A DNA stretch of 64,000 bases. Origin: an uncultured Chitinophaga sp. GTDB taxonomy: Bacteria > Bacteroidota > Bacteroidia > Chitinophagales > LD1. Positions within the stretch are counted from its first letter, which is position 1. Each line of letters begins with the position of its first letter. The notes under the pieces were generated by a model, which was not told the DNA's origin, ran no database searches, and saw only the letters and a program-made list of their open reading frames with translations. This document shows positions 8,972 to 61,977 of this stretch, one piece after another. Where the stretch lies: assembly GCA_964615305.1 (NCBI GenBank), contig CAZTNA010000007.1, forward strand, positions 326 to 64,325, given 5' to 3'. A program made the translations under genes and the position numbers.

Positions 8972-8996
8972 ACTGAGAAATTTTTACCGCACGAAT

Positions 8997-9770: not shown

Positions 9771-9806
9771 ACAACTAAGATAAGTGTTTCGGCTATCCGG
9801 TCTAAC

Positions 9807-10796: not shown

Positions 10797-10899
10797 AATT
10801 CTATTGCAAAAATGGTGCGTGAAGAAAAGAATTTTTTGGTGTCAGCGGTGGCAGAGAACAACAACTTAGCTTTTAAATTTTTGATTTTATACTTGCCTT

Positions 10900-32213: not shown

Positions 32214-32699
32214 ATGCTTACAGTACACCGTTCCGAAACTTATCGCTTGTTTTTGATAGAAGATAACCCTGCCGAAGTTCGGTTAATGCAGGAGGCCATA
32301 AAAGAAGCTGGCTTGCATGATGATTTGGAGTTGGAGTATGCTTACGATGGCGAAGAAGCCTGTGAAGCCCTCGACACGGCAAAACTGTTAAACAAGCAAT
32401 ACGATTTGGTGCTGCTTGACCTAAACATGCCTAAGGTAACTGGTCGTGAAGTTTTAGAAAAAATCAAAACTGACAGTGAACTTGAAAATACGCCTGTAAT
32501 TGTGGTAACCAACAGCGACTATAAAAAAGATATGATTGACTGCTACCGTTTGCGTGCTGATGGCTATCTTCAGAAGCCTGCTGACTTTAAGAAATTGGTT
32601 GACTTTTTTGTATCAGTTAAAGAATCAATTAAAGTTAAGCACAAACTTTCTATTTATTACATTGAGAAAGTTTACGATGAGCTGAGATTAGCTATTTAA
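32214..32699 (+). CDS. Stand-alone response regulator receiver domain
   Basis: CheY-like pattern: LIEDNPAEV, LLDLNMPKVTG, and K in GYLQKP. Confidence 0.8.
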   Translation: MLTVHRSETYRLFLIEDNPAEVRLMQEAIKEAGLHDDLELEYAYDGEEACEALDTAKLLNKQYDLVLLDLNMPKVTGREVLEKIKTDSELENTPVIVVTNSDYKKDMIDCYRLRADGYLQKPADFKKLVDFFVSVKESIKVKHKLSIYYIEKVYDELRLAI

Positions 32700-33416
32700 C
32701 CCAGCCAACAAAACATCAAAGACCTCTTGTTTAAAATTTTTCGAACGTTTTAGCTCAATAAACGTTTTACCTTCTGTCATAAGCCAGCACTTAGAGCAGT
32801 ATTCAATGGATATTTCAATATCATGGGTAGATAAGATTACCGTAGTCTTTAGGTCTTGTGCTATAGAAGAAAGCAACTCAAGAATTTCTTTTTTACTTCT
32901 AAAATCAAGAAAAGCCGTTGGCTCATCTAAAACAATAACGGGAGTATGCTGACAGAGCGCACGAGCTATCAAAACCTTCTGCTTTTCGCCATCACTTACT
33001 TCATTAAAAAGCTTATTTCGTAGTGGTTGAATTTTCATTAAGGTAATGATTCGGTCCACTTCTTTTGTATCTTTCTCTGTTATGTTACCCAGCCACCCGG
33101 TGTACGGCATTCTGCCAAGCGTAACAAACTCTTTCACTGATATGTTATCAACAAAAATTCGTTCGGTTGAAACAATACTAATGAGTTTGGCTCTTTCGTG
33201 TACCGTTAACCCTTTAAGCTGTTTACCTCCAATAGAGATACTGCCTTTTACAGCATTCTGTAAGCCGGAAATTGTTCTAAGCAGTGTTGACTTACCAATA
33301 CCATTTACGCCCAATAGAGCAATTACCTCTCCTTCATCTGCTACAAATGTAATTTCAGGAAATGTGACTTTATCACGTCCGTACCCTATAGTCAATTTAT
33401 CGGCTTGGAGTTTCAT
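32688..33416 (-). CDS. ABC transporter ATP-binding protein (BtuD/FecE-like)
   Basis: Walker A GVNGIGKST, signature SDGEKQ, Walker B VIVLDEPT. Confidence 0.9.
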   Translation of the reverse strand: MKLQADKLTIGYGRDKVTFPEITFVADEGEVIALLGVNGIGKSTLLRTISGLQNAVKGSISIGGKQLKGLTVHERAKLISIVSTERIFVDNISVKEFVTLGRMPYTGWLGNITEKDTKEVDRIITLMKIQPLRNKLFNEVSDGEKQKVLIARALCQHTPVIVLDEPTAFLDFRSKKEILELLSSIAQDLKTTVILSTHDIEISIEYCSKCWLMTEGKTFIELKRSKNFKQEVFDVLLAGLNS

Positions 33417-34433
33417 TTACAGTTTACGTTGACGAAGTATTATCCATATAACCACAGGTGCACCGAGTAAAGAAGTTATTGCATTAACCGGAAGAATAGT
33501 ATCTGAACCGGGTGTTGCTGCTAGAATATTACATAAACCACAGATCACGGCACCAATCAACCCACAGGCAGGCGTGAGTACTTTATGGTCCGCAGTTTTA
33601 AACACCGCCCGTGATAAGTGCGGCACTGCCAGCCCAACAAACCCTACGGGCCCACAGAATGCTGTAACAGTTCCTGCAAGAATGCTGGTGCAAAGCACTA
33701 TGAGAATTTTTGCATTACGCACGTTTAGGCCGGAACTTGTTGCATAGTTTTCACCAAGCAATAACAGGTTGAGGGGTTTGGTAAGTAACAATGAAAACAT
33801 AACCCCCATGCATACCACCAAGCTTAAAAAAACAACCTGACTGCTATTTACATATCTGAAACTACCGAATGTCCACATTACATAATTTTTCAGTGCTTCG
33901 TTAGAGCTAAATGACTGCATTATGTCTATAAGCGCACTAATACCTCCTCCAATCATTAATCCAACAATGAGTATGGCTACAACATCATTCAAACGAAAAG
34001 AAATAAGAAAGTTAATGAAGAATATAAAAACTGCACCGCCCGCAGCTGCTATCACTATGCTCCAACTGCTCAAAAATTGAACTTCATGAATTCCAAAAAC
34101 AGAAGCCGCCATAATAAAAACTGCTACACCCAAACTTGCTCCTGCACTAATTCCAAGCACGTAAGGTCCTGCCACCGGATTACGAAACATGGTTTGCATC
34201 TGCAAACCACTTACTGATAATCCTGCACCGGCAAGCAAAGCAGAAAGCGCAGACGGCAACCGCGATTCAAGAATAATGTTCCTCCAAGCTTCATTCATTG
34301 ACTTGTTTTGGACTAAAATGTTGAGCACCTCGGTAATGGGAATAGAAACAGAACCCAACACCAATTGCAGAAAAAACACAATTAAGGCAGCAAGCGAAAA
34401 AACAGAAAACAGAGCTGTTTGTTTTATGTTCAT
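33417..34433 (-). CDS. FecCD-family ABC permease (BtuC-like)
   Basis: 338 aa polytopic protein with an FecCD-type pattern (RNPVAGPYVLGISAGASLG). Confidence 0.88.
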   Translation of the reverse strand: MNIKQTALFSVFSLAALIVFFLQLVLGSVSIPITEVLNILVQNKSMNEAWRNIILESRLPSALSALLAGAGLSVSGLQMQTMFRNPVAGPYVLGISAGASLGVAVFIMAASVFGIHEVQFLSSWSIVIAAAGGAVFIFFINFLISFRLNDVVAILIVGLMIGGGISALIDIMQSFSSNEALKNYVMWTFGSFRYVNSSQVVFLSLVVCMGVMFSLLLTKPLNLLLLGENYATSSGLNVRNAKILIVLCTSILAGTVTAFCGPVGFVGLAVPHLSRAVFKTADHKVLTPACGLIGAVICGLCNILAATPGSDTILPVNAITSLLGAPVVIWIILRQRKL

Positions 34434-35614
34434 TTTAATTTTCGGTAATAATACAGTTCATGTTCAGGCAACAGTTGAGGGTGAAAAACAAGAATAAGGT
34501 CAGCAAGTATTTTGTCAGGGTATAGCGGGCCACTTTCCCAAAAGTCGAAACCACCACTTGATGTGTTGCGTTTATCGTTATTATAAACCTTACCTGATCT
34601 AAATGCACTGAACAATGTGTTTTTTTTGTCTGCATCTTCTATTTCATGTAATGAATTGGCAAACCCATTCACCAGCCAATAATCTGCCTTGTGCGCTTTG
34701 GCATAGACGGTTTCGTAATCCAGATTAAGATTCAATCCGTTGGTGGTTTTAGTATTTTGCCACAAAAAATCTCCACCTGCATCAGCAATTAACTTTGCCA
34801 TATAGTTTTCTCCACATGGCATATACCAAATCTCTTTAAATGGAATATTTACAAACACAGTAGGTCGTTTTGAAATTGAAATAACTTTATTTTTAAGAAG
34901 CAGATAGTTGTGCTCAATTTGATTAAAAATACTATCCGCTTCATACTCTTTGTCGTAAAAAGCGGCTATGAACTTTATCCACTCAGCACGGGCCAACGGC
35001 TCCTGCTCCATGTAATCTAAATTCAGTACAGATTTAATGTGCAACGAGTTAAGTTTCAATTTCATTTTATCGCCACCATCCCAACTGCCTGATGTAAACA
35101 CAAAAGCAGGATTAAGTTCTACTATCTTTTCGTAATTCAATTCATCACTTCCTACATCAGCAATTCTGTTTTGCTTTACCCGTTCAACTACTTCCTTGTT
35201 ATAAATCAAAGTCACGTTTGCCACACCGGCAATAGAATCCATCAAACCAAGTTTATCTAAAACTGAGATATGATTGGTAGAAATACAGATGGCCTTACGC
35301 ACAGGTGTATCGAGCAACACAGCGTTTGCAAAGTCTGCAGGAGCAACTTTCCCTTTTGGCAACAAAACATACTGTGCAAGTATCTTTGCGGTATCACGCC
35401 AGTCTTTCACGGTAATAGTCTTAAAACCGTTGTAGTAATCAACCGAAAAACCTTTGGCATATTTTACAGGCAGTGATGTTTCTTTTACACAATGAGGAGC
35501 ATGTGATGGTGCTGTTGTAGTTTTGCTCTTGCAAGACCATAGACCGCAAACGACAGACAACAAAAATACAACAACTGTACCCTTTAAACTATAAACTCTA
35601 AACTGTTTACTCAT
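34430..35614 (-). CDS. Periplasmic binding protein of cobalamin/siderophore class (BtuF-like)
   Basis: Signal/lipobox region, then a class III PBP-like sequence. Translationally coupled to the permease by a 4-nt overlap. Confidence 0.75.
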   Translation of the reverse strand: MSKQFRVYSLKGTVVVFLLSVVCGLWSCKSKTTTAPSHAPHCVKETSLPVKYAKGFSVDYYNGFKTITVKDWRDTAKILAQYVLLPKGKVAPADFANAVLLDTPVRKAICISTNHISVLDKLGLMDSIAGVANVTLIYNKEVVERVKQNRIADVGSDELNYEKIVELNPAFVFTSGSWDGGDKMKLKLNSLHIKSVLNLDYMEQEPLARAEWIKFIAAFYDKEYEADSIFNQIEHNYLLLKNKVISISKRPTVFVNIPFKEIWYMPCGENYMAKLIADAGGDFLWQNTKTTNGLNLNLDYETVYAKAHKADYWLVNGFANSLHEIEDADKKNTLFSAFRSGKVYNNDKRNTSSGGFDFWESGPLYPDKILADLILVFHPQLLPEHELYYYRKLK

Positions 35615-36651
35615 TCATTAAAAATAAAATTGCCGGAAATGACTCCTGCAGTGAAAGAATGAACTTCGTTTCCGTTTTTATCGTACCGGTAAATGCGCGA
35701 GCGCTGTACAAAATCTAGCGCATCGCACACATACACATCACCATTCGCAGAGTTAAGGGCTACCACATAAATGTTTTTGCTGCCTTTCGAAACAAAAACC
35801 TGTCCACTCAAACTTGCATCAGTTGTGTTGGCAGTAAATAAATCGTTGTCAAGATAAATCATTTTGCCATTCGCTTTGTCAATACAAAGCTGCGAAAAAT
35901 GATGCCCGTAATTAGAATGTGATAGAGTTTTGAGGAGACTTAGTGACTGGTCGTAACAAAGCAGTGCCGATTTAAAACCGTTTATAGAATCTTCATCCAT
36001 TGCCAGCCAGATATTTCCTGAGCCGTCAATTTCCATGGCATTGATATCGCGCTTTAAAAACGATTTTGAATCAGCAATTGAATTTGAACCCGGATTAATT
36101 TTTAAAAGTTTGTTATCGGTAGAAGCATCGGTGCTGACGGTGCGCTGCTGCACAAAAACATTTCCGTTGAGCAAAAACATTTTTTCTGTCCAGCCGGTGG
36201 TATAAATACTGGTTACTAATGTCCCTGAAATAAAATTTACAACCCAAATCTTTTTTGCATACAACTCAGTAACATACGCCACACTGTCACTTACCGGAAG
36301 AAAATAGCGCGGTGAAGAGCCGGGGATAGAAATAGTTTTTATCACCGTAAACGATGGCAGTTTCACCACTTCAATCTTCGCAGAATTATTTACCACCACA
36401 TAACCGGTAGAATCAATCACATACATGCTTTGTGCTACATCGCCCAAAGAATAACTGTTAGCTGTATAAAAAATTTCGTTGGTTACTTCCTGCTTATCTG
36501 CATTGTAAACAGATACATCGGCACTACCGAAATTGAAATTGCCTTCGTTAATAATATAAACTCCTGTTTCTGTAGGCAACACTTGCGGATTTTCCTTTTC
36601 GCAAGACGCAACGAACAACAATATCAAACCAACAAAAAGTATCTTCCTCAT
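35611..36651 (-). CDS. Surface beta-propeller lipoprotein (DUF5074/YncE-like; BtuG-like candidate)
   Basis: Lipobox LLFVASC, GVYIINEGNFNFGSADVSVYN motif, and repeated blade-like segments. Confidence 0.65.
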   Translation of the reverse strand: MRKILFVGLILLFVASCEKENPQVLPTETGVYIINEGNFNFGSADVSVYNADKQEVTNEIFYTANSYSLGDVAQSMYVIDSTGYVVVNNSAKIEVVKLPSFTVIKTISIPGSSPRYFLPVSDSVAYVTELYAKKIWVVNFISGTLVTSIYTTGWTEKMFLLNGNVFVQQRTVSTDASTDNKLLKINPGSNSIADSKSFLKRDINAMEIDGSGNIWLAMDEDSINGFKSALLCYDQSLSLLKTLSHSNYGHHFSQLCIDKANGKMIYLDNDLFTANTTDASLSGQVFVSKGSKNIYVVALNSANGDVYVCDALDFVQRSRIYRYDKNGNEVHSFTAGVISGNFIFNE

Positions 36652-38513
36652 TTTCTAATATTAAATCTAATGGTTCCTTCAAAACTTCTGCCTGGCATAG
36701 CACGTTGCGCTACATTCTGATAATTTACACCAACAACATTATTTACGCGAAACGCCAAACCTATTTCATAATCTTCTTTAATAGTAAAATCTTTCCCGAG
36801 TTCTAAATCAAACAAGTAATATCCTTTCAAACTTTGTGAATTGTCAGTAGAGATAAAAACTTTATCGGTGAAAGTAAACACCGGACGCAGATAGAGTTTC
36901 TTCCACTCCAGTTTCAAATTTGCTTTGAGCAAATTCAGTGGTACATAAATCAGTTGCTTGCCCTTAGATTGGTCGAACGGGGTAGCAGCATCGAGGTTTG
37001 TAGCGCATGTGTATGTGTAATTAATGGAACCGTTCAAACTAAAATTGTTGCGCGCAAAATAATTCCATTGGGTATAAACTTCTACTCCGCGTATAAGAAC
37101 ACGCTTTACATTCAGCGGCTGCCAATACGAACCGTTGCTTTGCCACAAAATTAAATCGGAAATGTATTTGCAAAATCCGCTGGCGCGAAATATAAAGTAG
37201 TAGCTGTAATTGTAAGATGCCTGCAACTCGCCATCCCAACTCTTCTCCGTTTTTAAATCAGAATTTCCGCCCGGCACCCAATACAAATCATTTAGTGTAG
37301 GAAACCGGAAATTGCGTGACGCATTCAACAAAAGCTGCACGGTGTGATAACTACTGATTGACTGGCGATAACGTATAGAGAGTGCCGGTGAGAATGGTGA
37401 AAGAATGTTGTCGTAAAGATGCTCGCGTAATTTTACCTGCAACATAATTTCTTTCGCAGGTTCGTAACTTACGGTAGCGGTAAGTTTACCGATATGCCTC
37501 TGACGAACAGAAATATAAGCCGGCACAACAGCTCGTTCAAATTCGTAACCGGCATCTACTTTTACTGAAAATTTCCTCAGCGAATCAAACGAAAAAGAAA
37601 AATTGTTCCGCAACGCTTGCATAATTGATTTATCGTCCAGATAAATTTCGGGGTTTGTATAGCGCAGGTAGTCATGCAAATAGGCAGAAGTACACTCAGT
37701 TTTTACTTTTCTAAAATTTCCTCTCCATGTCAGCATGCTCCGCAAGGAATAATCATCCTGGTTTTCCTTGCTGAGAGGTTTGCTCATCACCGGTGGAATC
37801 TGCCGCTGTGCATCGCTTATCCATACATTGAAAAAAATAGAATGATGCAGATTTAACTGCGCGGCAAATTGCTGCATAAAATGCAGCATGCTTACTTTGC
37901 CGTTGGTTTGCTTTTCTACAGGGCTACCCGCTTTAAAAATATTGACGAACGAAAAATCATTATCCGAATGGAAATAACCGACACGTGTTGTGCCCATCAC
38001 TTTCCCATTTCCGAATTTTGCCTGCGCATACGTACTGATGGTGTTAAAACTTCCATAGGTAAAATGCGCCTGAATAAATACCGATGAATCAACTTTGTTT
38101 TGATTCAATATGTTCAGCGAGCTGCCTACGTTTCCCGTTTCTGAATTTCCGGTCAGGCGCAGTTCATCTGCCAAACCCAAATTAAAAAGCGATACATCTA
38201 CTTGCCCCAGCGAAGGCGAATTGAGTTTAATACCATTCCACAACACATCGTTTTGTGCGGCAGCGGTGCCTCTGTAACTTAAAGAAGTAAGTTGTCCGTT
38301 GCCGTAGCTCTTGATATAAAAGCCAGTGTTTTCGCGCAATAAATCATTCAGGTTTTTAGAAGGAGTAACCAGGTAAAAAATACGCGAGCGGACTATACGT
38401 GTAGCGGTTTTTTCTGCCTGCGGAAGCGTGTAAGTGCGAATAGTATCAGTAATGCTTTGGGCGTTTGCAGTAAATGCAAAAATCAGCAACAGGTATGTTG
38501 CTAAATATTTCAT
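36648..38513 (-). CDS. TonB-dependent outer-membrane receptor (BtuB-like)
   Basis: Signal peptide, plug motifs (GNGQLTSLSYRGTAAAQNDVLWNGIKLNS), and a C-terminal aromatic barrel end. The small 621 aa size is typical of BtuB. Confidence 0.85.
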   Translation of the reverse strand: MKYLATYLLLIFAFTANAQSITDTIRTYTLPQAEKTATRIVRSRIFYLVTPSKNLNDLLRENTGFYIKSYGNGQLTSLSYRGTAAAQNDVLWNGIKLNSPSLGQVDVSLFNLGLADELRLTGNSETGNVGSSLNILNQNKVDSSVFIQAHFTYGSFNTISTYAQAKFGNGKVMGTTRVGYFHSDNDFSFVNIFKAGSPVEKQTNGKVSMLHFMQQFAAQLNLHHSIFFNVWISDAQRQIPPVMSKPLSKENQDDYSLRSMLTWRGNFRKVKTECTSAYLHDYLRYTNPEIYLDDKSIMQALRNNFSFSFDSLRKFSVKVDAGYEFERAVVPAYISVRQRHIGKLTATVSYEPAKEIMLQVKLREHLYDNILSPFSPALSIRYRQSISSYHTVQLLLNASRNFRFPTLNDLYWVPGGNSDLKTEKSWDGELQASYNYSYYFIFRASGFCKYISDLILWQSNGSYWQPLNVKRVLIRGVEVYTQWNYFARNNFSLNGSINYTYTCATNLDAATPFDQSKGKQLIYVPLNLLKANLKLEWKKLYLRPVFTFTDKVFISTDNSQSLKGYYLFDLELGKDFTIKEDYEIGLAFRVNNVVGVNYQNVAQRAMPGRSFEGTIRFNIRK

Positions 38514-39493
38514 TCAACTATTAGTTTCGCAACGTGTGTTCCTGATTGAACGAAGTAAAGACCTGATGGAAAGTTTCGGGTTTCAAGTTTCGAGTTGTGA
38601 CTTGAAATGACTACTCTGCTTACCAAACCACCAACAGCATTGTAAATTTCTACTTCACTTCCAACTAAACTTTCATCTGCTTTCAACTGAACATCTGCAT
38701 TTAAAACGGGATTTGGGTAAAGTTGAAACCTAAAACCTGAAACCTGAAGTTGAGCTAAGTCATTAGGTGCGCCTGAATGAATCACACCTACCGCATCTAA
38801 ATCAAATCCGCTTGAAGCAAAAAGTGTGGGGTAAGGGTCATTTATCTTTTTTCCAAACTGGTCGCGTGTGGCGAAAGCAGAGTCAATTGAGCCAATCACA
38901 TCAATCAAGCGAACATGAGTGATATTGTTTACATCCAAACCAATTTCATTTTTCAATTCTTCTAAATCAAACGGAGTTCCGAAACCGGAAACATATTTTC
39001 CGGCAAGGTTATTTACAAGCGAGCAATCAACACCTACCATTGCCATTTGCGAAGTATCCTGAATATTTGAAGTGGCGGGAAAGCGGAAGAAATTATTTCC
39101 ATCACTACTTACTTCAACAAAAGCAAATTCGAGAAATGCCAAAACTCCGCTTGTATAAAAACCATTTTCGAAAACAGCGAAATCAAAACCCGGGCCGTTA
39201 TAAACCGGCTTAGCAAAAGTAAGCGTAGCACTTCCTCCATCACCCAAACTCACAATTCCGTTTTGCTGCGCCATACCTATAGCCGAATTTGAATCGCCCA
39301 CGCTGGCATAACCTGAATCAGGTTTTGCAATATCCATAAGTCCACGCTGAATACTGCAGCCTGTTGCCCATGCAACAAAGCACGATGAATCTTTTGAAAT
39401 GGCTGTAGTGCCGGGCTGATTAGCGGCCGGTGCAAATTGTGCTTGAGATAAATAAGCAATCATTAACAGGCAGCAGAGCAAAATATTTTTCAT
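38510..39493 (-). CDS. Secreted protein of unknown function with T9SS type A C-terminal sorting domain
   Basis: Signal peptide. C-terminus LYPNPVLNADVQL...GLYFVQSGTHVAKLIVE. The N-domain has no family I can name. Confidence 0.7.
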   Translation of the reverse strand: MKNILLCCLLMIAYLSQAQFAPAANQPGTTAISKDSSCFVAWATGCSIQRGLMDIAKPDSGYASVGDSNSAIGMAQQNGIVSLGDGGSATLTFAKPVYNGPGFDFAVFENGFYTSGVLAFLEFAFVEVSSDGNNFFRFPATSNIQDTSQMAMVGVDCSLVNNLAGKYVSGFGTPFDLEELKNEIGLDVNNITHVRLIDVIGSIDSAFATRDQFGKKINDPYPTLFASSGFDLDAVGVIHSGAPNDLAQLQVSGFRFQLYPNPVLNADVQLKADESLVGSEVEIYNAVGGLVSRVVISSHNSKLETRNFPSGLYFVQSGTHVAKLIVE

Positions 39494-39558
39494 AAGGATT
39501 TATGTTATAAATTAAAAAGAGATGCCGCCATTTTGAGTAGCGACATCTCCTTCTTGAA

Positions 39559-41469
39559 TTACTGCTTTACAATTTTTCTTACAGAAGTTCCTTTCAAAGA
39601 ATTCAATCTGATAAAATAAATTCCACTGGCGAAACAGTCTGCATTGAGAATTGAGAATTGAGATTCTATTTTTTCTGTACTCATTACTTTTCCGGACAAA
39701 TCATAAACAGTTAACTCGCTTCCAATATTATCCTCAGTTGTTACAATACGAATTTCATTTCCCGAAAACGGGTTTGGATAAACTGTAAACTGCAACTCGT
39801 CATTCGCAAATTCTTTAACCGCTGTAACGCCTGTAACATTTACAACTACTTGGGCTGTATCGCATGCGCCAAGATTATCGCACACACGGTATGCAAGAGT
39901 ATCAACAGCAACAATCCCCACACTAGGAGTATAATAAATATCGTTGCTGACAACTGTTGCCGTAGCACCCGGAATAAGCGGTGAACCTATTAAGTCAACT
40001 GAAAAAGGGTCTGAAAACAAACCTCCATCATTATTGAGAACTCTTACTACTGTATCATTCAGATAGGTGGTAGTTACATAATCATTGTTTGCTCTTGGTT
40101 CAGTATACGCTGTAAAATTGTCTATAGCAAAATAGGCAGGGTTGTTCATGCCAAATCCACCTGCCGTATCTGTTGATGAAAGAAGGAATTCAATACTATC
40201 TACATCGCCTAACGGTTTTAAATCAACCCAGCGCCAATCGCGAACAATGTAATCGTCCGCACTGTTGGTAGAACGGAAGTCAGCAAGGTAGAAGTCTACC
40301 GATTGTGCTTTCAATGCTCCATTCAGCCATCCTACAATTCTCATCATGTACCAGTCAGGGTCGGTGCTGTTTACTCCTCCAAATTTCTTGGCAAAAGCAT
40401 CTCCGTTTTTCATGCTCAGGTAAGCATAAGTGGCATTGGTTACATAAAATCCTTCTACCGTTTTCCCTTTTGCACCTCCATTCAAACGGATTCTTGCATC
40501 ACCGTAAGTGTTGGCAACAGAATAATTATTTGAACCGTTATATCCGTTCGCTGTGATGGCGCTGTATTGATTGCCTACACCAGCCGTAGTGCTGTCTTTC
40601 TTATTTGAGTAAGAAAATCCGCTCCAGAATGCACCGTTGTTATTGTTTCCGAAATGAGCATTATCACTGGTGAATCCGCCACTAAATTCAGAGCCGTTCC
40701 AAAAAGTATCAACAGGCAAAGTTAGCTCTTCAAATCCTCCGCTAACTTTCACAGGAATGTTTTCGGCAGTAGTGAAATTATCTATCACAAAATAAGCGGG
40801 GTTGTTCATGCCAAAACCACCAACTGTATCTGTTGATTCCAAACTGAAAATTAAACTGTCTACACTCCCCAGAGGCTGCAAATTAACCCAGCGCCAATCA
40901 CGCACTATATAATCCTGTGTGCTGTCGGGAGAACGGAAATCAGCCAGATAAAACTCTACTGATTGAGTTTTCATTACCCCATTGCTCCATCCGTTAACTG
41001 TCAAACGGAACCAATCAGGGTCGGTGCCGCTTGCTCCTCCGAATTTCTTGGCGAAAGCATCTCCGTTTTTCATACTCAGATAAGCATAAGTGGAGTTAGT
41101 AAGATAAAATCCTGTTACAGTTCGCCCAGAAGCACTTCCTAAAAGACGAATTTTAGCTTCACCATAAGTAGTAGCTACCGCATAATTATCGGAACCACTG
41201 AATCCGCTTGCTGTAATCACGCTGTACTGGTTTCCTGTACCGCTGGTCGTGCTGTCCGTTTTGTTTGAGTAAGAAAAACCGCTCCATAAACCACCACTGT
41301 GGTTATTGGTGAAATAAGCATTGCCGCTTGCAAAGCCACCGCTTAAATCACTGCCGTTCCAGAAGGAGTCGATAGGCAACAGCAGATTTTCAAAAGTAGA
41401 TACTGTTTGAGCGAACAGAAAACTTGCCATCAGTGTGGCGCACATCAGAAGGTTGAATTTTTTACTCAT
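39559..41469 (-). CDS. Tandem DUF4465-like protein with Ig/cadherin-like module and T9SS type A sorting domain
   Basis: Two roughly 210 aa copies (LPIDSFWNGSDLSGGF... and LPVDTFWNGSEFSGGF...), an NNDGG-type module, and the C-terminus VYPNPFSGNEIRI...GIYFIRL. Confidence 0.75.
   Translation of the reverse strand: MSKKFNLLMCATLMASFLFAQTVSTFENLLLPIDSFWNGSDLSGGFASGNAYFTNNHSGGLWSGFSYSNKTDSTTSGTGNQYSVITASGFSGSDNYAVATTYGEAKIRLLGSASGRTVTGFYLTNSTYAYLSMKNGDAFAKKFGGASGTDPDWFRLTVNGWSNGVMKTQSVEFYLADFRSPDSTQDYIVRDWRWVNLQPLGSVDSLIFSLESTDTVGGFGMNNPAYFVIDNFTTAENIPVKVSGGFEELTLPVDTFWNGSEFSGGFTSDNAHFGNNNNGAFWSGFSYSNKKDSTTAGVGNQYSAITANGYNGSNNYSVANTYGDARIRLNGGAKGKTVEGFYVTNATYAYLSMKNGDAFAKKFGGVNSTDPDWYMMRIVGWLNGALKAQSVDFYLADFRSTNSADDYIVRDWRWVDLKPLGDVDSIEFLLSSTDTAGGFGMNNPAYFAIDNFTAYTEPRANNDYVTTTYLNDTVVRVLNNDGGLFSDPFSVDLIGSPLIPGATATVVSNDIYYTPSVGIVAVDTLAYRVCDNLGACDTAQVVVNVTGVTAVKEFANDELQFTVYPNPFSGNEIRIVTTEDNIGSELTVYDLSGKVMSTEKIESQFSILNADCFASGIYFIRLNSLKGTSVRKIVKQ
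40111..41397 (-). repeat. Intragenic tandem duplication (2 x about 630 nt) encoding the two DUF4465-like domains
   Basis: The protein copies are offset by exactly 220 aa. Nucleotide stretches such as AATTTCTTGGC[A/G]AAAGCATCTCCGTTTTTCAT are shared by both copies. Confidence 0.85.
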
Positions 41470-41569
41470 CGTTAGATGGTTTAAATGGTTTAAAAATTCG
41501 CCCCGAAAAATGAATGGATGAGATAGTGAAACCGTGCACTGTTTCCGTTCTCTGCCTTTCTTCCCGAAA

Positions 41570-41732
41570 GCTTTTAACTAATTTGCTAATGGCAGGTCTT
41601 CTGGTTTGCTCTGTTTCTGCCGCCTTCCCGTTTTACCAGTGGCTATTGAGGCAGAACCTATTTTAGAGCTTACAGCAGCGGGTACTACTCAGGATTTACA
41701 CCTGATTCCCTATTATGGTTAGTGCATACAAA
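41570..41732 (-). promoter_or_regulatory. Cobalamin (B12) riboswitch aptamer
   Basis: The minus strand reads AATAGGGAATCAGGTGTAAATCCTGAGTAGTACCCGCTGCTGTAAGC ... GCCACTGGTAAAACGGGAAGGCGGC ... AACCAGAAGACCTGCCATTAG. The last segment is the B12 box, with its complement at 41591-41604. Confidence 0.9.
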
Positions 41733-41825
41733 CATACACATCACCACCCTCAGCGGTGGCAAATAAAATTAATTTTATTTACAGCTCGTGAAATTTTTTT
41801 GTGAGCATTACGTTTCATGGTTAAT

Positions 41826-42140
41826 ATGAAAAAACGCCTTCTCGTTGCAATATGCGCCCCTTTGCTTTTGGTTAACTCGTGCCAAAAATGTTTCGACTGC
41901 AAACAATACTGTGCTTATTGTGTTCAAACCGGCAATACAGGTGTGATTGTAAAAGTATGCGCCAGCAAAGATGTAGCACATACCAAAATTGACTCTCTTT
42001 ATTACGCTTATAAAGCGTCTGGATATAACTGCAACTTATTAAACAATGAAAAAAAGGTGTGTGATAACAAAAACAACATTAACGATGCTACAGATTACTA
42101 CCAACTGCAAGATTACTTTTGCAACCCTTGGGAAGATTAA
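41826..42140 (+). CDS. Small cysteine-rich lipoprotein
   Basis: MKKRLLVAICAPLLLVNSC lipobox; 10 further Cys in about 85 aa, including CQKCFDCKQYCAYC. Confidence 0.55.
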   Translation: MKKRLLVAICAPLLLVNSCQKCFDCKQYCAYCVQTGNTGVIVKVCASKDVAHTKIDSLYYAYKASGYNCNLLNNEKKVCDNKNNINDATDYYQLQDYFCNPWED

Positions 42141-42197: not shown

Positions 42198-42947
42198 ATG
42201 AAGCAACAGCTTTTATTACTGCTCACCATTCTGTCAGCATTACATGTGTCAGCGCAAAAAAACGATACAAAAAAGGAAAAGAAAACTGTAAAAGAGGTAA
42301 TTAACGAACTACCTGAAATGCTGATAGCCCAACCTGATGCAGGTGTTGACACAAACGCAAATAAACTGATAAATGATAACGTAGCTATGGCAATTCCTTT
42401 ACTATGGAAAGAAAAAGGCCTTCAAACAATTATTGAATTTAAACTACAGAAAACAAATACCGAACCACTGCAAGCTACTATGCCTTTACCCGACAAACAA
42501 CTGGCACAAGCTGTTGTAATTAATTCCGGAACAATCAAAAAAATGCCTGCGGAAAAAAAGCAAGCTGTATTGACGCAAATCAGAAATCATCTCGTTTCAT
42601 TTTACAAAGAAGCCGGTACAACGGTAAGTACACAGGAGTTGAATGAGAAACTATTGGCTATGCAAATAAGCAGCGAGCCGTTTACCACCAACAGTGGAAT
42701 AAAGGGTGATTTGCTTTTATTTCATGATGTAAGTAATGAGCAATCTGCACTTAACATTTTGTTCTTAGCACCGGCTACAGACCATTCCAAAACGTTTTTT
42801 GCCCAAGTTAACTATATACGCTATAACTACGAAACCACATTTCCCGAAGATCCTCTTGAATGGAAAATGTTTGTATATGAAGATGAACAAAAATCATACG
42901 TTGACTTTACCAAAAACATTATCAAAACCCTGCAAATACAACAATAG
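42198..42947 (+). CDS. Secreted hypothetical protein
   Basis: Signal peptide MKQQLLLLLTILSALHVSAQ; no recognisable domain. Confidence 0.55.
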   Translation: MKQQLLLLLTILSALHVSAQKNDTKKEKKTVKEVINELPEMLIAQPDAGVDTNANKLINDNVAMAIPLLWKEKGLQTIIEFKLQKTNTEPLQATMPLPDKQLAQAVVINSGTIKKMPAEKKQAVLTQIRNHLVSFYKEAGTTVSTQELNEKLLAMQISSEPFTTNSGIKGDLLLFHDVSNEQSALNILFLAPATDHSKTFFAQVNYIRYNYETTFPEDPLEWKMFVYEDEQKSYVDFTKNIIKTLQIQQ

Positions 42948-42984: not shown

Positions 42985-44859
42985 GTGCGCGTGAAAAACT
43001 TCTATACTGCTTGTTTGTGTTTTTTGTGTACTCATACTTTTGCTCAGGGTTTTTGGAGCAACAACGGGCTTGTATCAATTAAAGACAGTTCTTTTCTTTC
43101 GATTATAGGCGACTGCTACAATCAGACAAATGGTATCTATAACAATACCGATTCAATTTTCCTGACGGGCAACTGGACTCATGATGCAGCGAACCGTTGC
43201 TTCGACTCTATTAATACAGGGTGGGTATATCTGTACGCTGCCGACCAGCGAATAATGGGCAACAGCGAAACTCATTTTCATAATCTGGTTTTAAAAAATG
43301 ACGGAATAAAATATGGAGATATTGATGTGTATGTTGATGGTACACTATACTTGAATGACAGAGAGTTTAACCTTGACACAAATACAGTTCATGTATTAAA
43401 CCCACAAGTAAACTCCGTTGACAGAACAAGTGGTTTTATTTCTGCTCTAGGCACGGGTGGCTTGTTACGCAGAACCAATCAAACACAACTTTATCTGTTT
43501 CCTTTGGGTTCTACAGTTGGCACGTATCGTTACCGTCCCGTAGAATTTACTCCTGCAGCCACCAACGTTAACCACTACAAAGCGCGCTTTGCAAATGCCG
43601 ATGCTACAACAGAAGGCTTTGACAGAAATGTGAAACATAACCGCGTATGCGTTATAAATAACTTGTGGTATCACCGTTTGTATCACCCTTATGGAAACGA
43701 CTCTGCCGATATTTCTATACTCTACGATATAGCAGTTGACGGAAACTGGAACGAAATAGTTCATTGGCAGAATATGCCGCAATGGGAGCCCATTCTACGT
43801 GATACTATTTTACCAGGCAGTCCGCTTTACCGTATGAGCAAATTTCGTTGGCATAACTACAACGCCTCACCCTTTGCCCTGGCAACAATTTCACCGCTAA
43901 AACTTACCGGTGAGCAAAGCAATGTTACCTGCTTTGGCTATAACAACGGGTTCATAAATACATTTGTAACAAATGCCGATACCGCCTACACCATACTATG
44001 GAGCAATGGAGATACTTCGCAAAACATTAGCAATCTGGCTCCCGGCACTTATACTATTGTACTGAGTGAAGCTAATCGCTGCGAACAATCACTTTCGTTT
44101 TCCATTACCGAACCAACAGCAATTTCGTCATCTATATTTAGCGTGAATGATTCGTGTTTTGGTGCAAGTAATGGCTACGCAGAATTAAGCGTAAGCGGAG
44201 GCACTCCACCTTACATTTTTTTATGGGACAGCACCATTACTACACAAAATATCTATAACCTGCCTGCAGGATTATATACTGTGCTTATTACCGATTCGCA
44301 AGCATGTTTTAAAAACGACTCTATACTTATTACTCAACCCGACCCGGTGCCCTATGCCATTGCCGGAGTTGATACCCTGATTTGGAGAACCGATACTATT
44401 CAACTGAATGGTTTTCTCGGATCCACTTATCATTGGTTGCCAGATTACAATTTAAGTTGTGTAGATTGCTATAACCCTATGGCCTGGCCAGATACAAATA
44501 CCACTTACTATCTTACCCTAACTGATGATATTGGCTGTCATTTTAAAGACAGTGTGCGAGTAATGGTGCGCGATAAACCTTTTACCAAATTTTTTATTCC
44601 AAATGCAATAACACCTGATAATAATGACGGGTTCAATGATTTTTGGAACATCCGCGATTTGGAACGATACCCCGAAAACGAAGTACGAATAATAAACCGT
44701 TGGGGCGATGAAGTTTTCAGCGCATCCCCGTATCAAAACAATTGGCGCGGAACATGGAAGGACGAAAACCTTCCCGGAGCTACTTACTATTACATACTGA
44801 AAATAAAACACAACGGGCAGGAAGTATTGTTTGATGGTCCATTGACAATTATTAGGTAA
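42985..44859 (+). CDS. SprB-repeat protein with gliding-motility-associated (T9SS type B) C-terminal domain
   Basis: Repeats NVTCFGYNNGFI...WSNGDT and DSCFGASNGYA...GGTPPY. C-terminus FIPNAITPDNNDGFNDFW...INRWGDEVF...W.G. Confidence 0.8.
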   Translation: MRVKNFYTACLCFLCTHTFAQGFWSNNGLVSIKDSSFLSIIGDCYNQTNGIYNNTDSIFLTGNWTHDAANRCFDSINTGWVYLYAADQRIMGNSETHFHNLVLKNDGIKYGDIDVYVDGTLYLNDREFNLDTNTVHVLNPQVNSVDRTSGFISALGTGGLLRRTNQTQLYLFPLGSTVGTYRYRPVEFTPAATNVNHYKARFANADATTEGFDRNVKHNRVCVINNLWYHRLYHPYGNDSADISILYDIAVDGNWNEIVHWQNMPQWEPILRDTILPGSPLYRMSKFRWHNYNASPFALATISPLKLTGEQSNVTCFGYNNGFINTFVTNADTAYTILWSNGDTSQNISNLAPGTYTIVLSEANRCEQSLSFSITEPTAISSSIFSVNDSCFGASNGYAELSVSGGTPPYIFLWDSTITTQNIYNLPAGLYTVLITDSQACFKNDSILITQPDPVPYAIAGVDTLIWRTDTIQLNGFLGSTYHWLPDYNLSCVDCYNPMAWPDTNTTYYLTLTDDIGCHFKDSVRVMVRDKPFTKFFIPNAITPDNNDGFNDFWNIRDLERYPENEVRIINRWGDEVFSASPYQNNWRGTWKDENLPGATYYYILKIKHNGQEVLFDGPLTIIR

Positions 44860-44991
44860 AATGATTCGCAGATTGATTGATTTGAAAATTATAAGATGAC
44901 AACGAACAGAAACAAAAAACAGGTTGTACACCAATGGTGCGTAGGTTCGGTGCCAACTTGTTTCTATCAATATTTTGTCGTTACAGGGCAA

Positions 44992-45981: not shown

Positions 45982-46058
45982 TTTCAGTCACCTGCTGCTA
46001 CTGATAGTTGTTTGGCTAAACATCGAGTAATTACAAGTTTAAATACCAGCCATTCTTG

Positions 46059-46082
46059 TGCCCATGTTAAAATGCCCATGTT
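46059..46082 (+). repeat. Exact direct repeat TGCCCATGTT x2 (14-nt period) in the promoter region of the M43 protease gene
   Basis: Read directly: TGCCCATGTTAAAATGCCCATGTT, 55 nt upstream of ATG 46137. Confidence 0.8.
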
Positions 46083-46136
46083 GGTTTCGAATGCATCCGA
46101 ACGTGTGTCTGCCAATGTTTTTTATGTTCGCTCCCC

Positions 46137-61892: not shown

Positions 61893-61977
61893 GCCCGGGT
61901 GGCGAAACTGGTAGACGCGCTCGTTTCAGGTGCGAGAGCCGCAAGGTGTGGGGGTTCGAATCCCTTCCCGGGCACCA
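61893..61977 (+). tRNA. tRNA-Leu (anticodon CAG), encoded CCA
   Basis: Acceptor stem GCCCGGG/CCCGGGC. Anticodon stem CTCGT/GCGAG with loop TTCAGGT. Long variable arm, T-arm GGGGGTTCGAATCCC(T), and a 3' ACCA. Confidence 0.93.

What the first reader, a model, noticed from the sequence alone, without database searches (positions are those of the whole stretch)
32688..41732. B12-riboswitch-led seven-gene operon in which two T9SS-sorted proteins of unknown function precede a BtuB/BtuG-like/BtuFCD importer
- A textbook cobalamin aptamer, including the B12 box, lies upstream of seven co-directional genes. Five of the six junctions are tight: four 4-nt overlaps and one direct abutment.
- The gene order is: tandem DUF4465-like T9SS protein, unknown T9SS protein, TonB-dependent receptor, beta-propeller lipoprotein, periplasmic binding protein, permease, ATPase.
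- In gut Bacteroides, high-affinity B12 capture uses surface lipoproteins (BtuG, and further B12-binding proteins in the same loci).
- Here the first and largest products carry type A T9SS C-terminal sorting domains. They would be secreted or covalently attached to the surface by the T9SS, while the BtuG-like protein uses the lipoprotein route.
- The inference is a T9SS-delivered corrinoid-scavenging layer. These proteins may be released or extended capture proteins. As far as I know this has not been characterised.
Basis: partly seen in the sequence, partly recalled or inferred. Interest (0 to 1): 0.7.

Follow-up and report, generated by a model that had tools for sequence, protein, structure and literature searches.

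The report
T9SS-displayed vitamin B12 capture operon
This is a vitamin-B12-sensing operon for B12 import whose two leading genes encode relatives of the B12-capturing surface proteins of gut Bacteroides. Here they are exported by the type IX secretion system instead of being lipid-anchored, an arrangement that is common in environmental Bacteroidota but not described in the papers I could search.

Summary
On the minus strand a full-length cobalamin riboswitch (RF00174, 85.6 bits, 41574-41766) precedes seven co-directional genes. The junctions are four 4-nt overlaps, one abutment and one 65-nt gap.

- **Genes 3-7** are a Bacteroides-type BtuB/BtuG outer-membrane pair plus BtuF, BtuC and BtuD.
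- **Gene 1** is no longer "unknown". Its two DUF4465 domains (71% identical) belong to the BtuJ family, shown in 2025-26 to bind B12, and both keep the signature tyrosines.
- **Gene 2** has a 227-residue domain with no Pfam model. It looks like a remote relative of the BtuH B12-binding domain: Foldseek ranks 1 and 3 in the PDB, and hhalign gives 92%, E 6e-7, against controls of 5% or less.
- **Export:** both proteins have signal-peptidase-I signals and type A T9SS tails, not the lipoprotein anchors of gut Bacteroides.

The pair is widespread. The gene-2 domain occurs in at least 530 species, and 63 of the best 80 loci have the riboswitch upstream. The T9SS tail is on 49/51 DUF4465 partners and 80/82 gene-2 homologues, and DUF4465/gene-2 fusions exist.

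Verdict: a known B12 capture relay displayed by a different export route. Corrinoid binding by gene 2 and T9SS dependence are untested.

The parts
41574..41766 (-). Cobalamin riboswitch aptamer (RF00174), including the B12 box
   Evidence: 85.6 bits, E 1.1e-19, full model 1-189. Homologous aptamers sit at the same place in L003, L004 and L005 and in 63 of 80 further loci.
41470..41573 (-). Leader / expression platform. It holds a conserved block AGCUUUCGGGAA...UUUUCGGGGCGAAUUUUU and a U-tract that is invariant among 8 relatives. The mechanism is unresolved.
   Evidence: RNAalifold supports only a small hairpin, and the fold z-score is -0.18.
39559..41469 (-). g1: signal-peptidase-I signal (..LFA|QTV), two BtuJ-type DUF4465 jelly-roll domains, a Big_9 Ig-like spacer and a type A T9SS sorting domain
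   Evidence: Best PDB matches are BtuJ1 (9qpm/9fct, E 1e-23) and D5EK51 (9hmu, 8e-22).
40762..41409 (-). g1 DUF4465 domain 1 (residues 21-236). It keeps TYAYL (DE helix Tyr) and NNPAYF (HI loop Tyr).
   Evidence: Motif definition from PMC13398666.
40102..40761 (-). g1 DUF4465 domain 2 (residues 237-456), 71% identical to domain 1. It keeps the same two Tyr motifs.
39838..40098 (-). g1 Big_9 Ig-like spacer (residues 458-544)
   Evidence: 31.4 bits, cut-off 23.6.
39562..39783 (-). g1 type A T9SS C-terminal sorting domain (residues 563-636)
   Evidence: PF18962, 41.6 bits; TIGR04183, 53.4 bits.
39514..39554 (-). 17-bp hairpin with an A-tract and a U-tract immediately after the g1 stop codon. It resembles an intrinsic terminator and is probably a partial terminator or a 3'-end stabiliser.
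   Evidence: dG -23.2 kcal/mol, z -6.08, 0 of 200 shuffles fold as well. Analogous hairpins follow the DUF4465 gene in L006, L007, L022, L035, L042, L052 and L057.
38510..39493 (-). g2: signal-peptidase-I signal (..SQA|QFAPAAN), a 227-residue BtuH-like domain (here called X) and a type A T9SS sorting domain
38759..39439 (-). g2 X domain (residues 19-245), with no Pfam model. AF2 pLDDT 96.6. Remote BtuH-type fold.
   Evidence: 8blw_B rank 1, 7biz_B rank 3; hhalign 92.2%, E 5.7e-7; controls <= 4.9%.
38513..38728 (-). g2 type A T9SS sorting domain (residues 256-327)
36648..38513 (-). g3: BtuB-type TonB-dependent transporter
   Evidence: the best PDB matches are Bacteroides BtuB2/BtuB3 (8p97_A, 2.5e-48; 8bmx_C), then BtuB1 and E. 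coli BtuB. Plug domain.
35611..36651 (-). g4: BtuG-type beta-propeller surface lipoprotein (lipobox VAS-C, then EKEN)
   Evidence: 8p97_B BtuG2, E 1.6e-40; DUF5074; sequence.
34430..35614 (-). g5: BtuF-like periplasmic binding lipoprotein
   Evidence: Peripla_BP_2, 73 bits; lipobox LWS-C. Its specificity is inferred from context only.
33417..34433 (-). g6: BtuC-like permease
   Evidence: FecCD, 251 bits; the best NCBIfam match is BtuC, below the equivalog cut-off.
32688..33416 (-). g7: BtuD-like ABC ATPase

Best explanation
This is a B12-repressible corrinoid acquisition operon of the Bacteroidota type.

Proposed sequence of events:
1. When intracellular cobamide is low, the riboswitch permits expression.
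2. g1 and g2 cross the inner membrane by Sec (signal-peptidase-I signals, Q at +1). Their type A C-terminal domains then take them across the outer membrane through the T9SS.
3. Outside the cell they are either attached to the surface or released.
4. g1 offers two BtuJ-type jelly-roll pockets on an Ig-like stalk for high-affinity corrinoid capture.
5. g2 is a BtuH-like domain that binds or relays the corrinoid.
6. The ligand passes to the BtuG lipoprotein lid on the BtuB barrel. TonB-powered import follows, then the BtuF lipoprotein and BtuCD.
7. A strong hairpin after g1 probably makes g1 transcript more abundant than the rest of the operon.

What is shown: the RNA element, the gene identities, the sorting signals, the conservation of the module and the domain fusions.

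What is inferred: ligand binding by g1 (by family membership), ligand binding or relay by g2 (by remote homology and context), T9SS dependence, the order of hand-over, and the role of the hairpin.
For: Element and core transporter:
- Riboswitch.
- BtuB and BtuG identity.

g1 as BtuJ:
- PF14717 matched twice; PDB BtuJ1 and D5EK51.
- Both domains keep TYAYL and NNPAYF. The HI-loop Tyr is retained in 97% of the family and binds B12 (PMC13398666).
- Eight family members, including six distant ones, bind B12.

g2 as BtuH-like:
- The domain-only AF2 model has pLDDT 96.6 and pTM 0.93.
- In Foldseek against 350,542 PDB chains, rank 1 is BtuG1/BtuGH (8blw_B, prob 1.00, TMq 0.46) and rank 3 is BtuH2 (7biz_B, prob 0.99, TMq 0.44). 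The other hits are CBM32/discoidin domains at TMq about 0.3.
- hhalign of the X profile against a BtuH profile gives Prob 92.2%, E 5.7e-7. Controls: BtuG 0.1%, DUF4465 0.1%, ten column shuffles <= 4.9%, reversed 0.3%.
- The shared block is VSLG.GG..F..I.N..G.DF.V..N.F. It contains the counterparts of BtuH2 Asn399 and Phe401.

Context:
- The same seven-gene order with a riboswitch occurs in L003 and L005 (L004 lacks the ATPase gene).
- 63 of 80 genome loci have a cobalamin riboswitch upstream on the same strand.
- DUF4465 lies directly upstream of the g2 homologue in 43 loci and is fused to it in 2. BtuB is present in 51 and BtuG in 57.
- 11 of 150 representative clusters are DUF4465/X fusions, in both orders.
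- In L043 and L063 the riboswitch sits directly before X alone. L083 reads riboswitch, CWC, X, CobT, CobS.

Sorting and T9SS:
- 49/51 DUF4465 partners and 75/82 X proteins (80/82 with a local HMM) carry Por_Secre_tail.
- Their N-termini are signal-peptidase-I type.
- The window itself holds PorP/SprF and other T9SS cargo.
Against: - No binding or secretion data exist for these proteins.
- The BtuH link is remote. TM-scores are only 0.44-0.46.
- PDB sequence-profile searches with two other X profiles found nothing. The one weak HMM hit to 8blw_B (E 1.4e-3) was not reproducible.
- Only Asn399 and Phe401 of the BtuH2 ligand/metal residues can be mapped with confidence.
- About 10 of 80 X genes sit in unrelated contexts with no riboswitch.
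- The g1/g2 hairpin could be a full terminator, which would uncouple g2-g7 from the riboswitch.
- The expression platform could not be resolved.
Confidence: 0.7

Rival explanations
1. g2 (the X domain) does not bind corrinoids. It is instead a scaffold or adaptor, for example one that docks the BtuJ-like protein onto BtuBG. Alternatively it is a CBM32/discoidin-like glycan-binding module that tethers the capture protein to the cell surface or to B12-producing neighbours.
For: - Apart from the two BtuH entries, every Foldseek neighbour is a CBM32, discoidin or galactose-binding domain.
- Most BtuH2 ligand residues cannot be mapped.
- About 10 of 80 X genes are orphans without a riboswitch.
- BtuK2 shows that not every accessory protein in a Btu locus binds B12 (PMC13616437).
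Against: - The two PDB entries that contain a BtuH domain rank 1 and 3.
- The profile-profile match is specific against controls.
- X can be the only gene behind a B12 riboswitch (L043, L063) or sit with CobT and CobS (L083).
- The block conserved with BtuH includes the Asn/Phe pair that contacts B12 in 7BIZ.
Confidence: 0.22
2. The operon is transcriptionally split. The hairpin after g1 is an efficient terminator, so the riboswitch controls only g1, and g2-g7 are expressed from an internal promoter independently of B12.
For: - The hairpin has 17 bp, flanking A and U tracts, dG -23.2 and z -6.08.
- Similar hairpins follow the DUF4465 gene in other lineages.
- In B. theta one study reports that BtuJ1 abundance is partly uncoupled from B12 (bioRxiv 10.1101/2025.07.01.662609).
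Against: - There is only one riboswitch in the window.
- The 65-nt gap contains no recognisable promoter, and the sigma-70 scan is at background (23 found, 24.8 expected).
- In 32 of 43 loci the DUF4465/X junction is 17 nt or less, or overlapping.
- In many lineages the order is riboswitch, BtuB, J, X, BtuG, so the riboswitch clearly governs the transporter.
- g2/g3 overlap by 4 nt.
Confidence: 0.12
3. g1 and g2 are ordinary T9SS surface proteins (adhesins or similar) that happen to lie between the riboswitch and the transporter and play no part in B12 uptake.
For: Both have Ig-like or beta-sandwich folds typical of adhesins. The window holds other T9SS cargo.
Against: - Experimental B12 binding has been shown across the DUF4465 family.
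- The module with a riboswitch recurs in 63 of 80 loci across several orders.
- J/X fusions exist.
Confidence: 0.03

Closest known systems
Bacteroides thetaiotaomicron Btu loci 1-3 (BtuB-BtuG core, accessory BtuJ, BtuH and BtuK, plus BtuFCD; riboswitch-controlled)
   Same: - A cobalamin riboswitch leads the locus.
- The BtuB barrel is paired with a BtuG propeller lipoprotein (best PDB matches 8p97_A and 8p97_B).
- There is a DUF4465/BtuJ capture protein and a BtuH-type domain next to it, as with BT1956/BT1957.
- BtuFCD is encoded in the same locus.
- The J-type protein is likely made in excess.
   Different: - The J-like and H-like proteins have signal-peptidase-I signals and type A T9SS sorting domains instead of lipoboxes with a lipoprotein export signal.
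- The J-like protein is a tandem of two binding domains.
- The H-like domain is so diverged that it shares only one sequence block with BtuH.
- There are no PKD stalks on it and no BtuK.
BtuJ1, BtuJ2 and D5EK51 (DUF4465, PF14717; PDB 9FCT, 9I2L, 9HMU)
   Same: The jelly-roll family match is strong (354.8 bits). The HI loop N-x-P-A-Y-F and the DE-helix Tyr are kept in both g1 domains. g1 has a signal peptide and sits in a B12 transporter locus.
   Different: g1 has two domains in one chain, a Big_9 spacer and a T9SS tail. The published survey classifies family members as lipoproteins (over 70%) or as 'periplasmic' and does not consider T9SS.
BtuH2 (7BIZ) and the BtuH domain of BtuG1/BtuGH (8BLW chain B)
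   Same: - They are the top structural neighbours of the g2 domain.
- hhalign gives 92%.
- They share the block VSLG.GG..F..I.N..G.DF....N.F, which holds the Asn399/Phe401 equivalents.
- Both lie adjacent to a DUF4465 gene and in a B12 locus.
   Different: - TM-score is only about 0.45 and identity 12-13%.
- The BtuH signature PAPGQF and the WGYxDN and GEVSTEVF motifs are not recognisably kept.
- X is about 60 residues shorter.
- X has a T9SS tail instead of a lipid anchor.
T9SS cargo that binds a tetrapyrrole nutrient (P. gingivalis HBP35, a hemin-binding protein; from my own knowledge) and secreted hemophores such as HasA
   Same: An extracellular or surface protein captures a scarce tetrapyrrole for a TonB-dependent transporter. 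HBP35 uses a T9SS C-terminal domain.
   Different: The folds and the ligand differ. No homology is implied, and I tested nothing here.
E. coli BtuBFCD
   Same: A riboswitch-controlled TonB-dependent receptor works with a periplasmic binding protein and an ABC importer.
   Different: E. coli has no extracellular capture layer and no BtuG. Its genes are dispersed.

Membership tests
Cobalamin riboswitch (RF00174) | Covariance-model score above the gathering threshold over the full aptamer, with the B12 box | tested here: met
   85.6 bits against 31.5, model positions 1-189 of 189.
Cobalamin riboswitch (RF00174) | A ligand-responsive expression platform (terminator or start-site sequestration) | tested here: inconclusive
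   The leader and its U-tract are conserved, but no well-supported alternative helices were found.
BtuJ / DUF4465 (PF14717) | Pfam PF14717 match above the gathering score | tested here: met
   354.8 bits, two domains. PDB BtuJ1, E 1e-23.
BtuJ / DUF4465 (PF14717) | Conserved B12-contacting Tyr in the HI loop (N-T/N-P-A-Y) and Tyr in the DE helix | tested here: met
   NNPAYF and TYAYL are present in both domains. Motif definition from PMC13398666.
BtuJ / DUF4465 (PF14717) | Encoded in a B12-riboswitch locus with btuB and btuG | tested here: met
BtuJ / DUF4465 (PF14717) | Surface lipoprotein (SPII signal plus lipoprotein export signal), as in BtuJ1 and BtuJ2 | tested here: not met
   signal-peptidase-I type signal (LFA|QTV) with no lipobox. 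A T9SS C-terminal domain is present instead.
BtuJ / DUF4465 (PF14717) | High-affinity binding of cobalamin or cobinamide | not testable with these tools
   Needs purified protein.
BtuH B12-binding domain (7BIZ type) | Same fold as the 7BIZ C-terminal domain | tested here: inconclusive
   8blw_B rank 1 (prob 1.00, TMq 0.46) and 7biz_B rank 3 (prob 0.99, TMq 0.44). These are the best in the PDB, but the TM-scores are moderate.
BtuH B12-binding domain (7BIZ type) | Detectable sequence or profile homology to BtuH family members | tested here: met
   hhalign Prob 92.2%, E 5.7e-7, controls <= 4.9%. The confident core is only about 35-43 columns. PDB HMM searches were negative.
BtuH B12-binding domain (7BIZ type) | Metal and phosphate site residues (Asn399, Glu406, Asp522, Ser582, Glu584) and corrin contacts (Gln333, Phe334, Phe401, Tyr510, Trp577) | tested here: inconclusive
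   The Asn399/Phe401 equivalents are invariant or nearly invariant in X (FENGF). The other residues cannot be aligned with confidence.
BtuH B12-binding domain (7BIZ type) | Surface lipoprotein anchoring | tested here: not met
   signal-peptidase-I signal (SQA|QFAP). Type A C-terminal domain. 80 of 82 homologues have the C-terminal domain.
BtuG (DUF5074 propeller lipoprotein) | Homology to solved BtuG structures, a lipobox, and a gene adjacent to btuB | tested here: met
   8p97_B, E 1.6e-40; PF16819, 41.2 bits against 27.2; VAS-C-EKEN; 4-nt overlap with g3.
BtuB (B12 TonB-dependent transporter) | Closest solved relatives are BtuB proteins, with a plug and a barrel | tested here: met
   8p97_A 2.5e-48, 8bmx_C, 8blw_A, 1nqf_A. 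Plug.
BtuB (B12 TonB-dependent transporter) | NCBIfam equivalog score (TIGR01779 / NF007926) | tested here: not met
   64 bits against a cut-off of 600. Those models are proteobacterial. Assignment rests on the Bacteroides structures and on context.
T9SS type A cargo | C-terminal TIGR04183 / PF18962 domain above the cut-off, plus an N-terminal Sec signal | tested here: met
   g1 53.4 bits and g2 34.2 bits against a cut-off of 23. Signals.
T9SS type A cargo | The host encodes a T9SS | tested here: inconclusive
   a PorP/SprF homologue (176.8 bits), a CHU_C/SprB cargo and a C-terminal-domain peptidase lie in the window. The core genes (porK-N, sov, porU/V) lie outside the 64 kb and could not be checked.
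T9SS type A cargo | Secretion abolished in T9SS mutants, with the C-terminal domain cleaved | not testable with these tools
   Needs an experiment.

The most novel reading that the evidence does not exclude
The tandem BtuJ-like protein, and perhaps the BtuH-like protein, is released from the cell by the T9SS as a soluble, bivalent 'corrinophore'. It scavenges corrinoids at a distance and is then recaptured at BtuG-BtuB. This would be a protein-based functional analogue of hemophores, and it would be widespread in soil, freshwater and marine Bacteroidota. On this reading the J + X pair is a portable capture cassette displayed through whichever sorting system the host has: a T9SS tail, PEP-CTERM or a lipid anchor.
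Probability: 0.2. Interest if true: 0.8.

Novelty: new variant of a known kind. Interest (0 to 1): 0.55.

Why it matters
- **Scope of current knowledge.** B12 is a keystone shared nutrient, yet extracellular capture has been worked out almost only in gut Bacteroides. There the capture proteins are lipoproteins, and BtuH is regarded as a gut-Bacteroidota speciality (37 species).
- **What this locus shows.** T9SS-bearing environmental Bacteroidota (Chitinophagales, Flavobacteriales, Saprospiraceae, Cytophagales) appear to build the same relay from a BtuJ-type protein and a previously unnamed BtuH-like family. That family spans at least 530 species and 2,173 clusters at 50% identity, has no Pfam model, and is exported by a different machine.
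- **What it opens up.**
  - It gives a concrete function to a very common 'T9SS type A sorting domain-containing hypothetical protein'.
  - It suggests that the published 'periplasmic' class of DUF4465 proteins is at least partly T9SS cargo.
  - It makes the question of released versus anchored corrinoid binders testable in tractable species such as Flavobacterium and Taibaiella.

Tried and rejected
- **Full-length g2 model.** The Foldseek search was dominated by two-domain beta-sandwich enzymes at TM about 0.2 and was uninformative. I replaced it with a domain-only model.
- **Sequence routes from the X domain to the PDB.**
  - The single sequence found only sorting-domain matches.
  - Profile A1 gave a weak 8blw_B hit (E 1.4e-3). 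It vanished with profiles A2 and A3, so I do not count it as evidence.
- **Family libraries.** Pfam and NCBIfam give no family for the X domain. There is only a sub-threshold LIC_13355 lipoprotein hit.
- **Promoters and terminators.** The sigma-70 promoter scan is at background (23 found against 24.8 expected). The terminator scan missed the g1/g2 hairpin because its loop limit is too short.
- **Leader structure.** RNAalifold on eight leaders found only a 6-bp hairpin. I considered a long-range CGGGAA/UUYYCG helix before the U-tract, but both strands are nearly invariant, so there is no covariation and I make no claim.
- **Source organism.** 'Chitinophagales-like' rests on the nearest homologues.
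- **A confounded control.** hhalign of X against alignment A5 gave 93%. A5 contains two J-X fusion proteins, so I discarded that result and repeated the control with DUF4465 domains only (0.1%).
- **g5 specificity.** It could not be confirmed by PDB similarity; the only hit is YclQ at 7e-6.


Full report
**1. The observation**

The feature is on the minus strand. Rfam finds a complete cobalamin aptamer at 41574-41766 (85.6 bits against a gathering score of 31.5, E 1.1e-19, model positions 1-189 of 189, B12 box present). It is the only riboswitch in the window.

Seven ORFs follow in the same direction:
- g1, 39559-41469
- g2, 38510-39493
- g3, 36648-38513
- g4, 35611-36651
- g5, 34430-35614
- g6, 33417-34433
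- g7, 32688-33416

**2. The transporter part (g3-g7)**

- **g3.** Its closest solved relatives are the Bacteroides B12 transporters BtuB2 and BtuB3 (8p97_A, 2.5e-48; 8bmx_C), then BtuB1 and E. coli BtuB.
- **g4.** It matches BtuG2 (8p97_B) at 1.6e-40 and Pfam DUF5074. It begins with a lipobox followed by acidic residues (..LLFVAS-C-EKEN). From my own knowledge, that pattern resembles the Bacteroidota lipoprotein surface-export signal.
- **g5.** A Peripla_BP_2 lipoprotein.
- **g6 and g7.** g6 is a FecCD/BtuC-type permease and g7 an ABC ATPase.

This is the BtuB-BtuG plus BtuFCD arrangement described for B. thetaiotaomicron (PMC10404256; PMC13616437).

**3. g1 is a BtuJ-family protein**

g1 has two DUF4465 domains (354.8 bits in total), a Big_9 Ig-like domain and a type A T9SS sorting domain (TIGR04183, 53.4 bits, cut-off 23).

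DUF4465 is no longer of unknown function:
- BtuJ1 and BtuJ2 of B. theta are surface lipoproteins that bind B12 and cobinamide at pM-nM affinity.
- BtuJ1 confers fitness at low B12.
- Six distant homologues, including one from the flavobacterium Fluviicola taffensis, also bind B12.

The best PDB matches of g1 are BtuJ1 (9qpm and 9fct, about 1e-23) and D5EK51 (9hmu). The two g1 domains are 71% identical, which suggests a recent tandem duplication. Both keep the HI-loop motif NNPAYF and the DE-helix TYAYL, and these carry the two signature B12-contacting tyrosines. The N-terminus is a signal-peptidase-I signal (LFA|QTV), not a lipobox.

**4. g2 is a remote BtuH-like protein**

Apart from the T9SS tail (TIGR04183, 34.2 bits), g2 has no Pfam or NCBIfam family. 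Its N-terminal 227 residues, here called the X domain, define a very large and well-conserved family:
- The word-index search was saturated at 8,000 hits.
- An exhaustive search found 2,173 clusters at 50% identity.

A model of the domain alone is excellent (pLDDT 96.6, pTM 0.93). Foldseek against 350,542 PDB chains gives these ranks:
- Rank 1: chain B of 8BLW, the B. theta BtuG1 that carries a fused BtuH domain (prob 1.00, TMq 0.46).
- Rank 3: BtuH2, 7BIZ (prob 0.99, TMq 0.44).
- All other hits: CBM32 or discoidin-type sandwiches at TMq about 0.3.

This pattern fits the original report that BtuH resembles no solved structure except weakly a CBM-like domain (PMC8941943).

To test sequence homology I first recovered a BtuH2 homologue. 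I rebuilt the BtuG2 sequence from the PDB alignment, found its cluster and fetched its contig. L086:6645-8405 matches 7BIZ at 3e-91. I then collected 118 BtuH domains.

hhalign of an X profile (141 sequences) against the BtuH profile gives Prob 92.2%, E 5.7e-7. The controls are far lower:

| Comparison | hhalign probability |
|---|---|
| X vs BtuH | 92.2% |
| X vs BtuG | 0.1% |
| X vs DUF4465 | 0.1% |
| BtuH vs DUF4465 | 0.1% |
| X vs ten column-shuffled BtuH profiles | <= 4.9% |
| X vs reversed BtuH profile | 0.3% |

The confident core is the block VSLG-x-GG...F...I-x-N...G-x-DF-x-V-x-x-N-x-F. In BtuH2 numbering it ends in G-N399-A-F401. Asn399 helps coordinate the metal site that contacts the nucleotide-loop phosphate, and Phe401 stacks on the corrin. 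The equivalent Asn and Phe (FENGF) are invariant or nearly invariant in X.

The other BtuH2 ligand residues cannot be mapped reliably. PDB HMM searches with two other X profiles were negative. I therefore call g2 'BtuH-like, probably a remote homologue' and not a BtuH.

**5. The module is conserved and B12-linked**

Three homologues on long contigs show the same order behind a cobalamin riboswitch of 100-104 bits: DUF4465 with a T9SS tail, X with a T9SS tail, BtuB, BtuG, BtuF, BtuC, and BtuD in two of the three.

The best 80 loci are all Bacteroidota: Chitinophagales, Flavobacteriales, Saprospiraceae, Cytophagales and a few Bacteroidales. They include the cultured Taibaiella chishuiensis, Flavobacterium pectinovorum and F. 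calami.

A covariance model built from four of the aptamers finds a riboswitch upstream on the same strand in 63 of the 80 loci. Rfam finds none in the other 17. Seven of those are cut off upstream, and about ten are genuine orphans in unrelated contexts.

Gene orders vary:
- riboswitch, J, X, B, G, F, C, D
- riboswitch, B, J, X, G
- riboswitch, J, X, G, B
- riboswitch, B, G, X

Further counts across the 80 loci:
- DUF4465 lies directly upstream of X in 43 loci and is fused to it in 2.
- BtuB is present in 51 loci and BtuG in 57.

Additional links:
- Among the 150 best representative clusters, 11 are DUF4465/X fusions, in both orders.
- In L043 and L063 the riboswitch sits directly in front of X alone.
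- In L083 the order is riboswitch, Cys-rich CWC protein, X, CobT, CobS.

Together these results tie X to corrinoid metabolism independently of any similarity to BtuH.

**6. The export route**

Among the surveyed loci:
- 49 of 51 DUF4465 proteins match Por_Secre_tail.
- 75 of 82 X proteins match it in Pfam, and 80 of 82 with a local HMM. The two exceptions are L051, which is cut by a contig end, and L070.
- The DUF4465 N-termini are signal-peptidase-I type (..AQ|T). The one exception is a Bacteroidales MAG (L074), whose J protein is a lipoprotein with an acidic export signal while its X protein keeps the T9SS tail.

The window itself encodes three T9SS-related proteins just upstream: a PorP/SprF-family protein, a SprB-repeat protein with a type B (CHU_C) sorting domain, and an M43 peptidase with a type A tail. 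The organism therefore very probably has a working T9SS.

Outside this set, some X or J-X proteins end in PEP-CTERM signals or start with lipoboxes. The capture domains seem to be combined with whatever surface-sorting signal the host uses. From my own knowledge, B. thetaiotaomicron and B. fragilis lack a T9SS, which would explain why their versions are lipoproteins. I did not test this here.

**7. Regulation details**

The g1/g2 gap holds a 17-bp hairpin flanked by an A-tract and a U-tract (dG -23.2, z -6.08). In most relatives the J/X junction is 17 nt or less (32 of 43 loci). Where it is 39 nt or more, a strong hairpin, in most cases followed by a U-rich stretch, is seen in at least seven loci: L006, L007, L022, L035, L042, L052 and L057. 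Their sequences are unrelated.

I read this as recurrent partial termination or 3'-end stabilisation that raises the J-type protein above the transporter. This would parallel BtuJ1 being the most abundant Btu protein in B. theta. It is an inference. Full termination is kept as a rival explanation.

The leader between the aptamer and the start codon is conserved and contains an invariant U-tract. No alternative-helix model is supported, however.

**8. Comparison with what is known, and novelty**

Functionally this is the Bacteroides extracellular B12 relay of BtuJ, BtuH and BtuG passing to BtuB. It differs in four ways:
- Both capture proteins use the T9SS route.
- The J-type protein is a tandem.
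- The H-like family is very diverged and previously unnamed.
- That family has a broad environmental distribution.

The BtuJ and BtuH papers and the 2026 review do not mention T9SS. One of them classes non-lipoprotein DUF4465 proteins as periplasmic. Full-text searches combining T9SS with B12, cobalamin, BtuB or BtuG returned nothing relevant.

I therefore rate this a new variant of a known kind, with moderate interest of 0.55. The operon's overall function is unsurprising. The export route, the X family and the possibility of released corrinoid binders are new and directly testable.

Noticed in passing
window 39514-39554 (-); also L006:9894-9926, L035:9877-9910, L057:5565-5636, L022, L042, L052, L007: A strong hairpin, in most cases followed by a U-rich stretch, sits right after the DUF4465 gene whenever the J/X gap is 39 nt or more. 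It occurs in several lineages with unrelated sequences. This suggests recurrent attenuation or 3'-end stabilisation that sets the ratio of J protein to transporter.
   Followed up: partly
window 42985-48242 (+): A T9SS neighbourhood lies just upstream of the riboswitch: a SprB-repeat protein with a type B CHU_C sorting domain (42985-44859), a PorP/SprF-family outer-membrane protein (44896-45981), and an M43 peptidase with a type A tail (46137-48242).
   Followed up: partly
P0170, P0238, P0245, P0196 (PEP-CTERM); P0173, P0221 (lipobox): X-domain and J-X fusion proteins from other lineages end in PEP-CTERM sorting signals or begin with lipoboxes. The same capture domains are therefore combined with different surface-sorting systems.
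   Followed up: partly
L083:543-3925; L044:8872-10915; L030:5195-6487; P0155: A small Cys-rich CWC-type protein (PF14375) lies directly upstream of, or is fused to, X in several genomes. L083 reads riboswitch, CWC, X, CobT, CobS, which links X to corrinoid remodelling genes.
   Followed up: no
L017, L026, L045 (about 8251-10921): Orphan X genes without a riboswitch repeatedly follow a 563-aa gene beginning M.KQLIECVPNFSEGRD. From my own knowledge this looks like formimidoyltransferase-cyclodeaminase. About 10 of 80 X genes lie outside B12 loci.
   Followed up: partly
L074:8910-10933: A Bacteroidales MAG has mixed anchoring. Its DUF4465 protein is a lipoprotein with an acidic export signal (..ALTS-C-EKEDINDD), while the adjacent X protein keeps a T9SS tail.
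   Followed up: no
g2 residues 19-28 and all homologues (alignments A1, A6): The mature N-terminus of X, directly after the signal-peptide cut, is almost invariant (Q-F/Y-A-P-x-A/V-G-x-x-G-S/T-T-A). The free N-terminus may therefore be part of the functional site. Q at +1 fits the Bacteroidota pyroglutamate 'Q-rule' (my own knowledge).
   Followed up: no
window 41470-41573 (-) and alignment A7: The leader between the aptamer and the g1 start codon is conserved among eight relatives. It includes the invariant block CUUUCGGGAA and an invariant U-tract about 25-60 nt before the start codon. The switching mechanism could not be deduced.
   Followed up: partly
PDB 8blw chain B against PMC13616437 section 5.3: The review says the BtuH domain of BtuGH is fused at the N-terminus of the propeller. 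The sequence matches place it C-terminal instead: propeller at about residues 40-131 onwards and the BtuH domain at residues 390-658.
   Followed up: no
window 41817-42140 (+) and 42198-42947 (+): Two ORFs (107 and 249 aa) lie divergent from the riboswitch promoter region and have no Pfam match.
   Followed up: no
window 32214-32699 (+): A stand-alone response-regulator receiver gene converges on the operon and overlaps the 3' end of g7 by 12 nt. The same neighbour is present in L003. No terminator-like structure was found at the operon's end.
   Followed up: no
window 61893-61974 (+): An 82-nt tRNA with a long variable arm (Rfam, 50.1 bits). It is unrelated to the finding.
   Followed up: no
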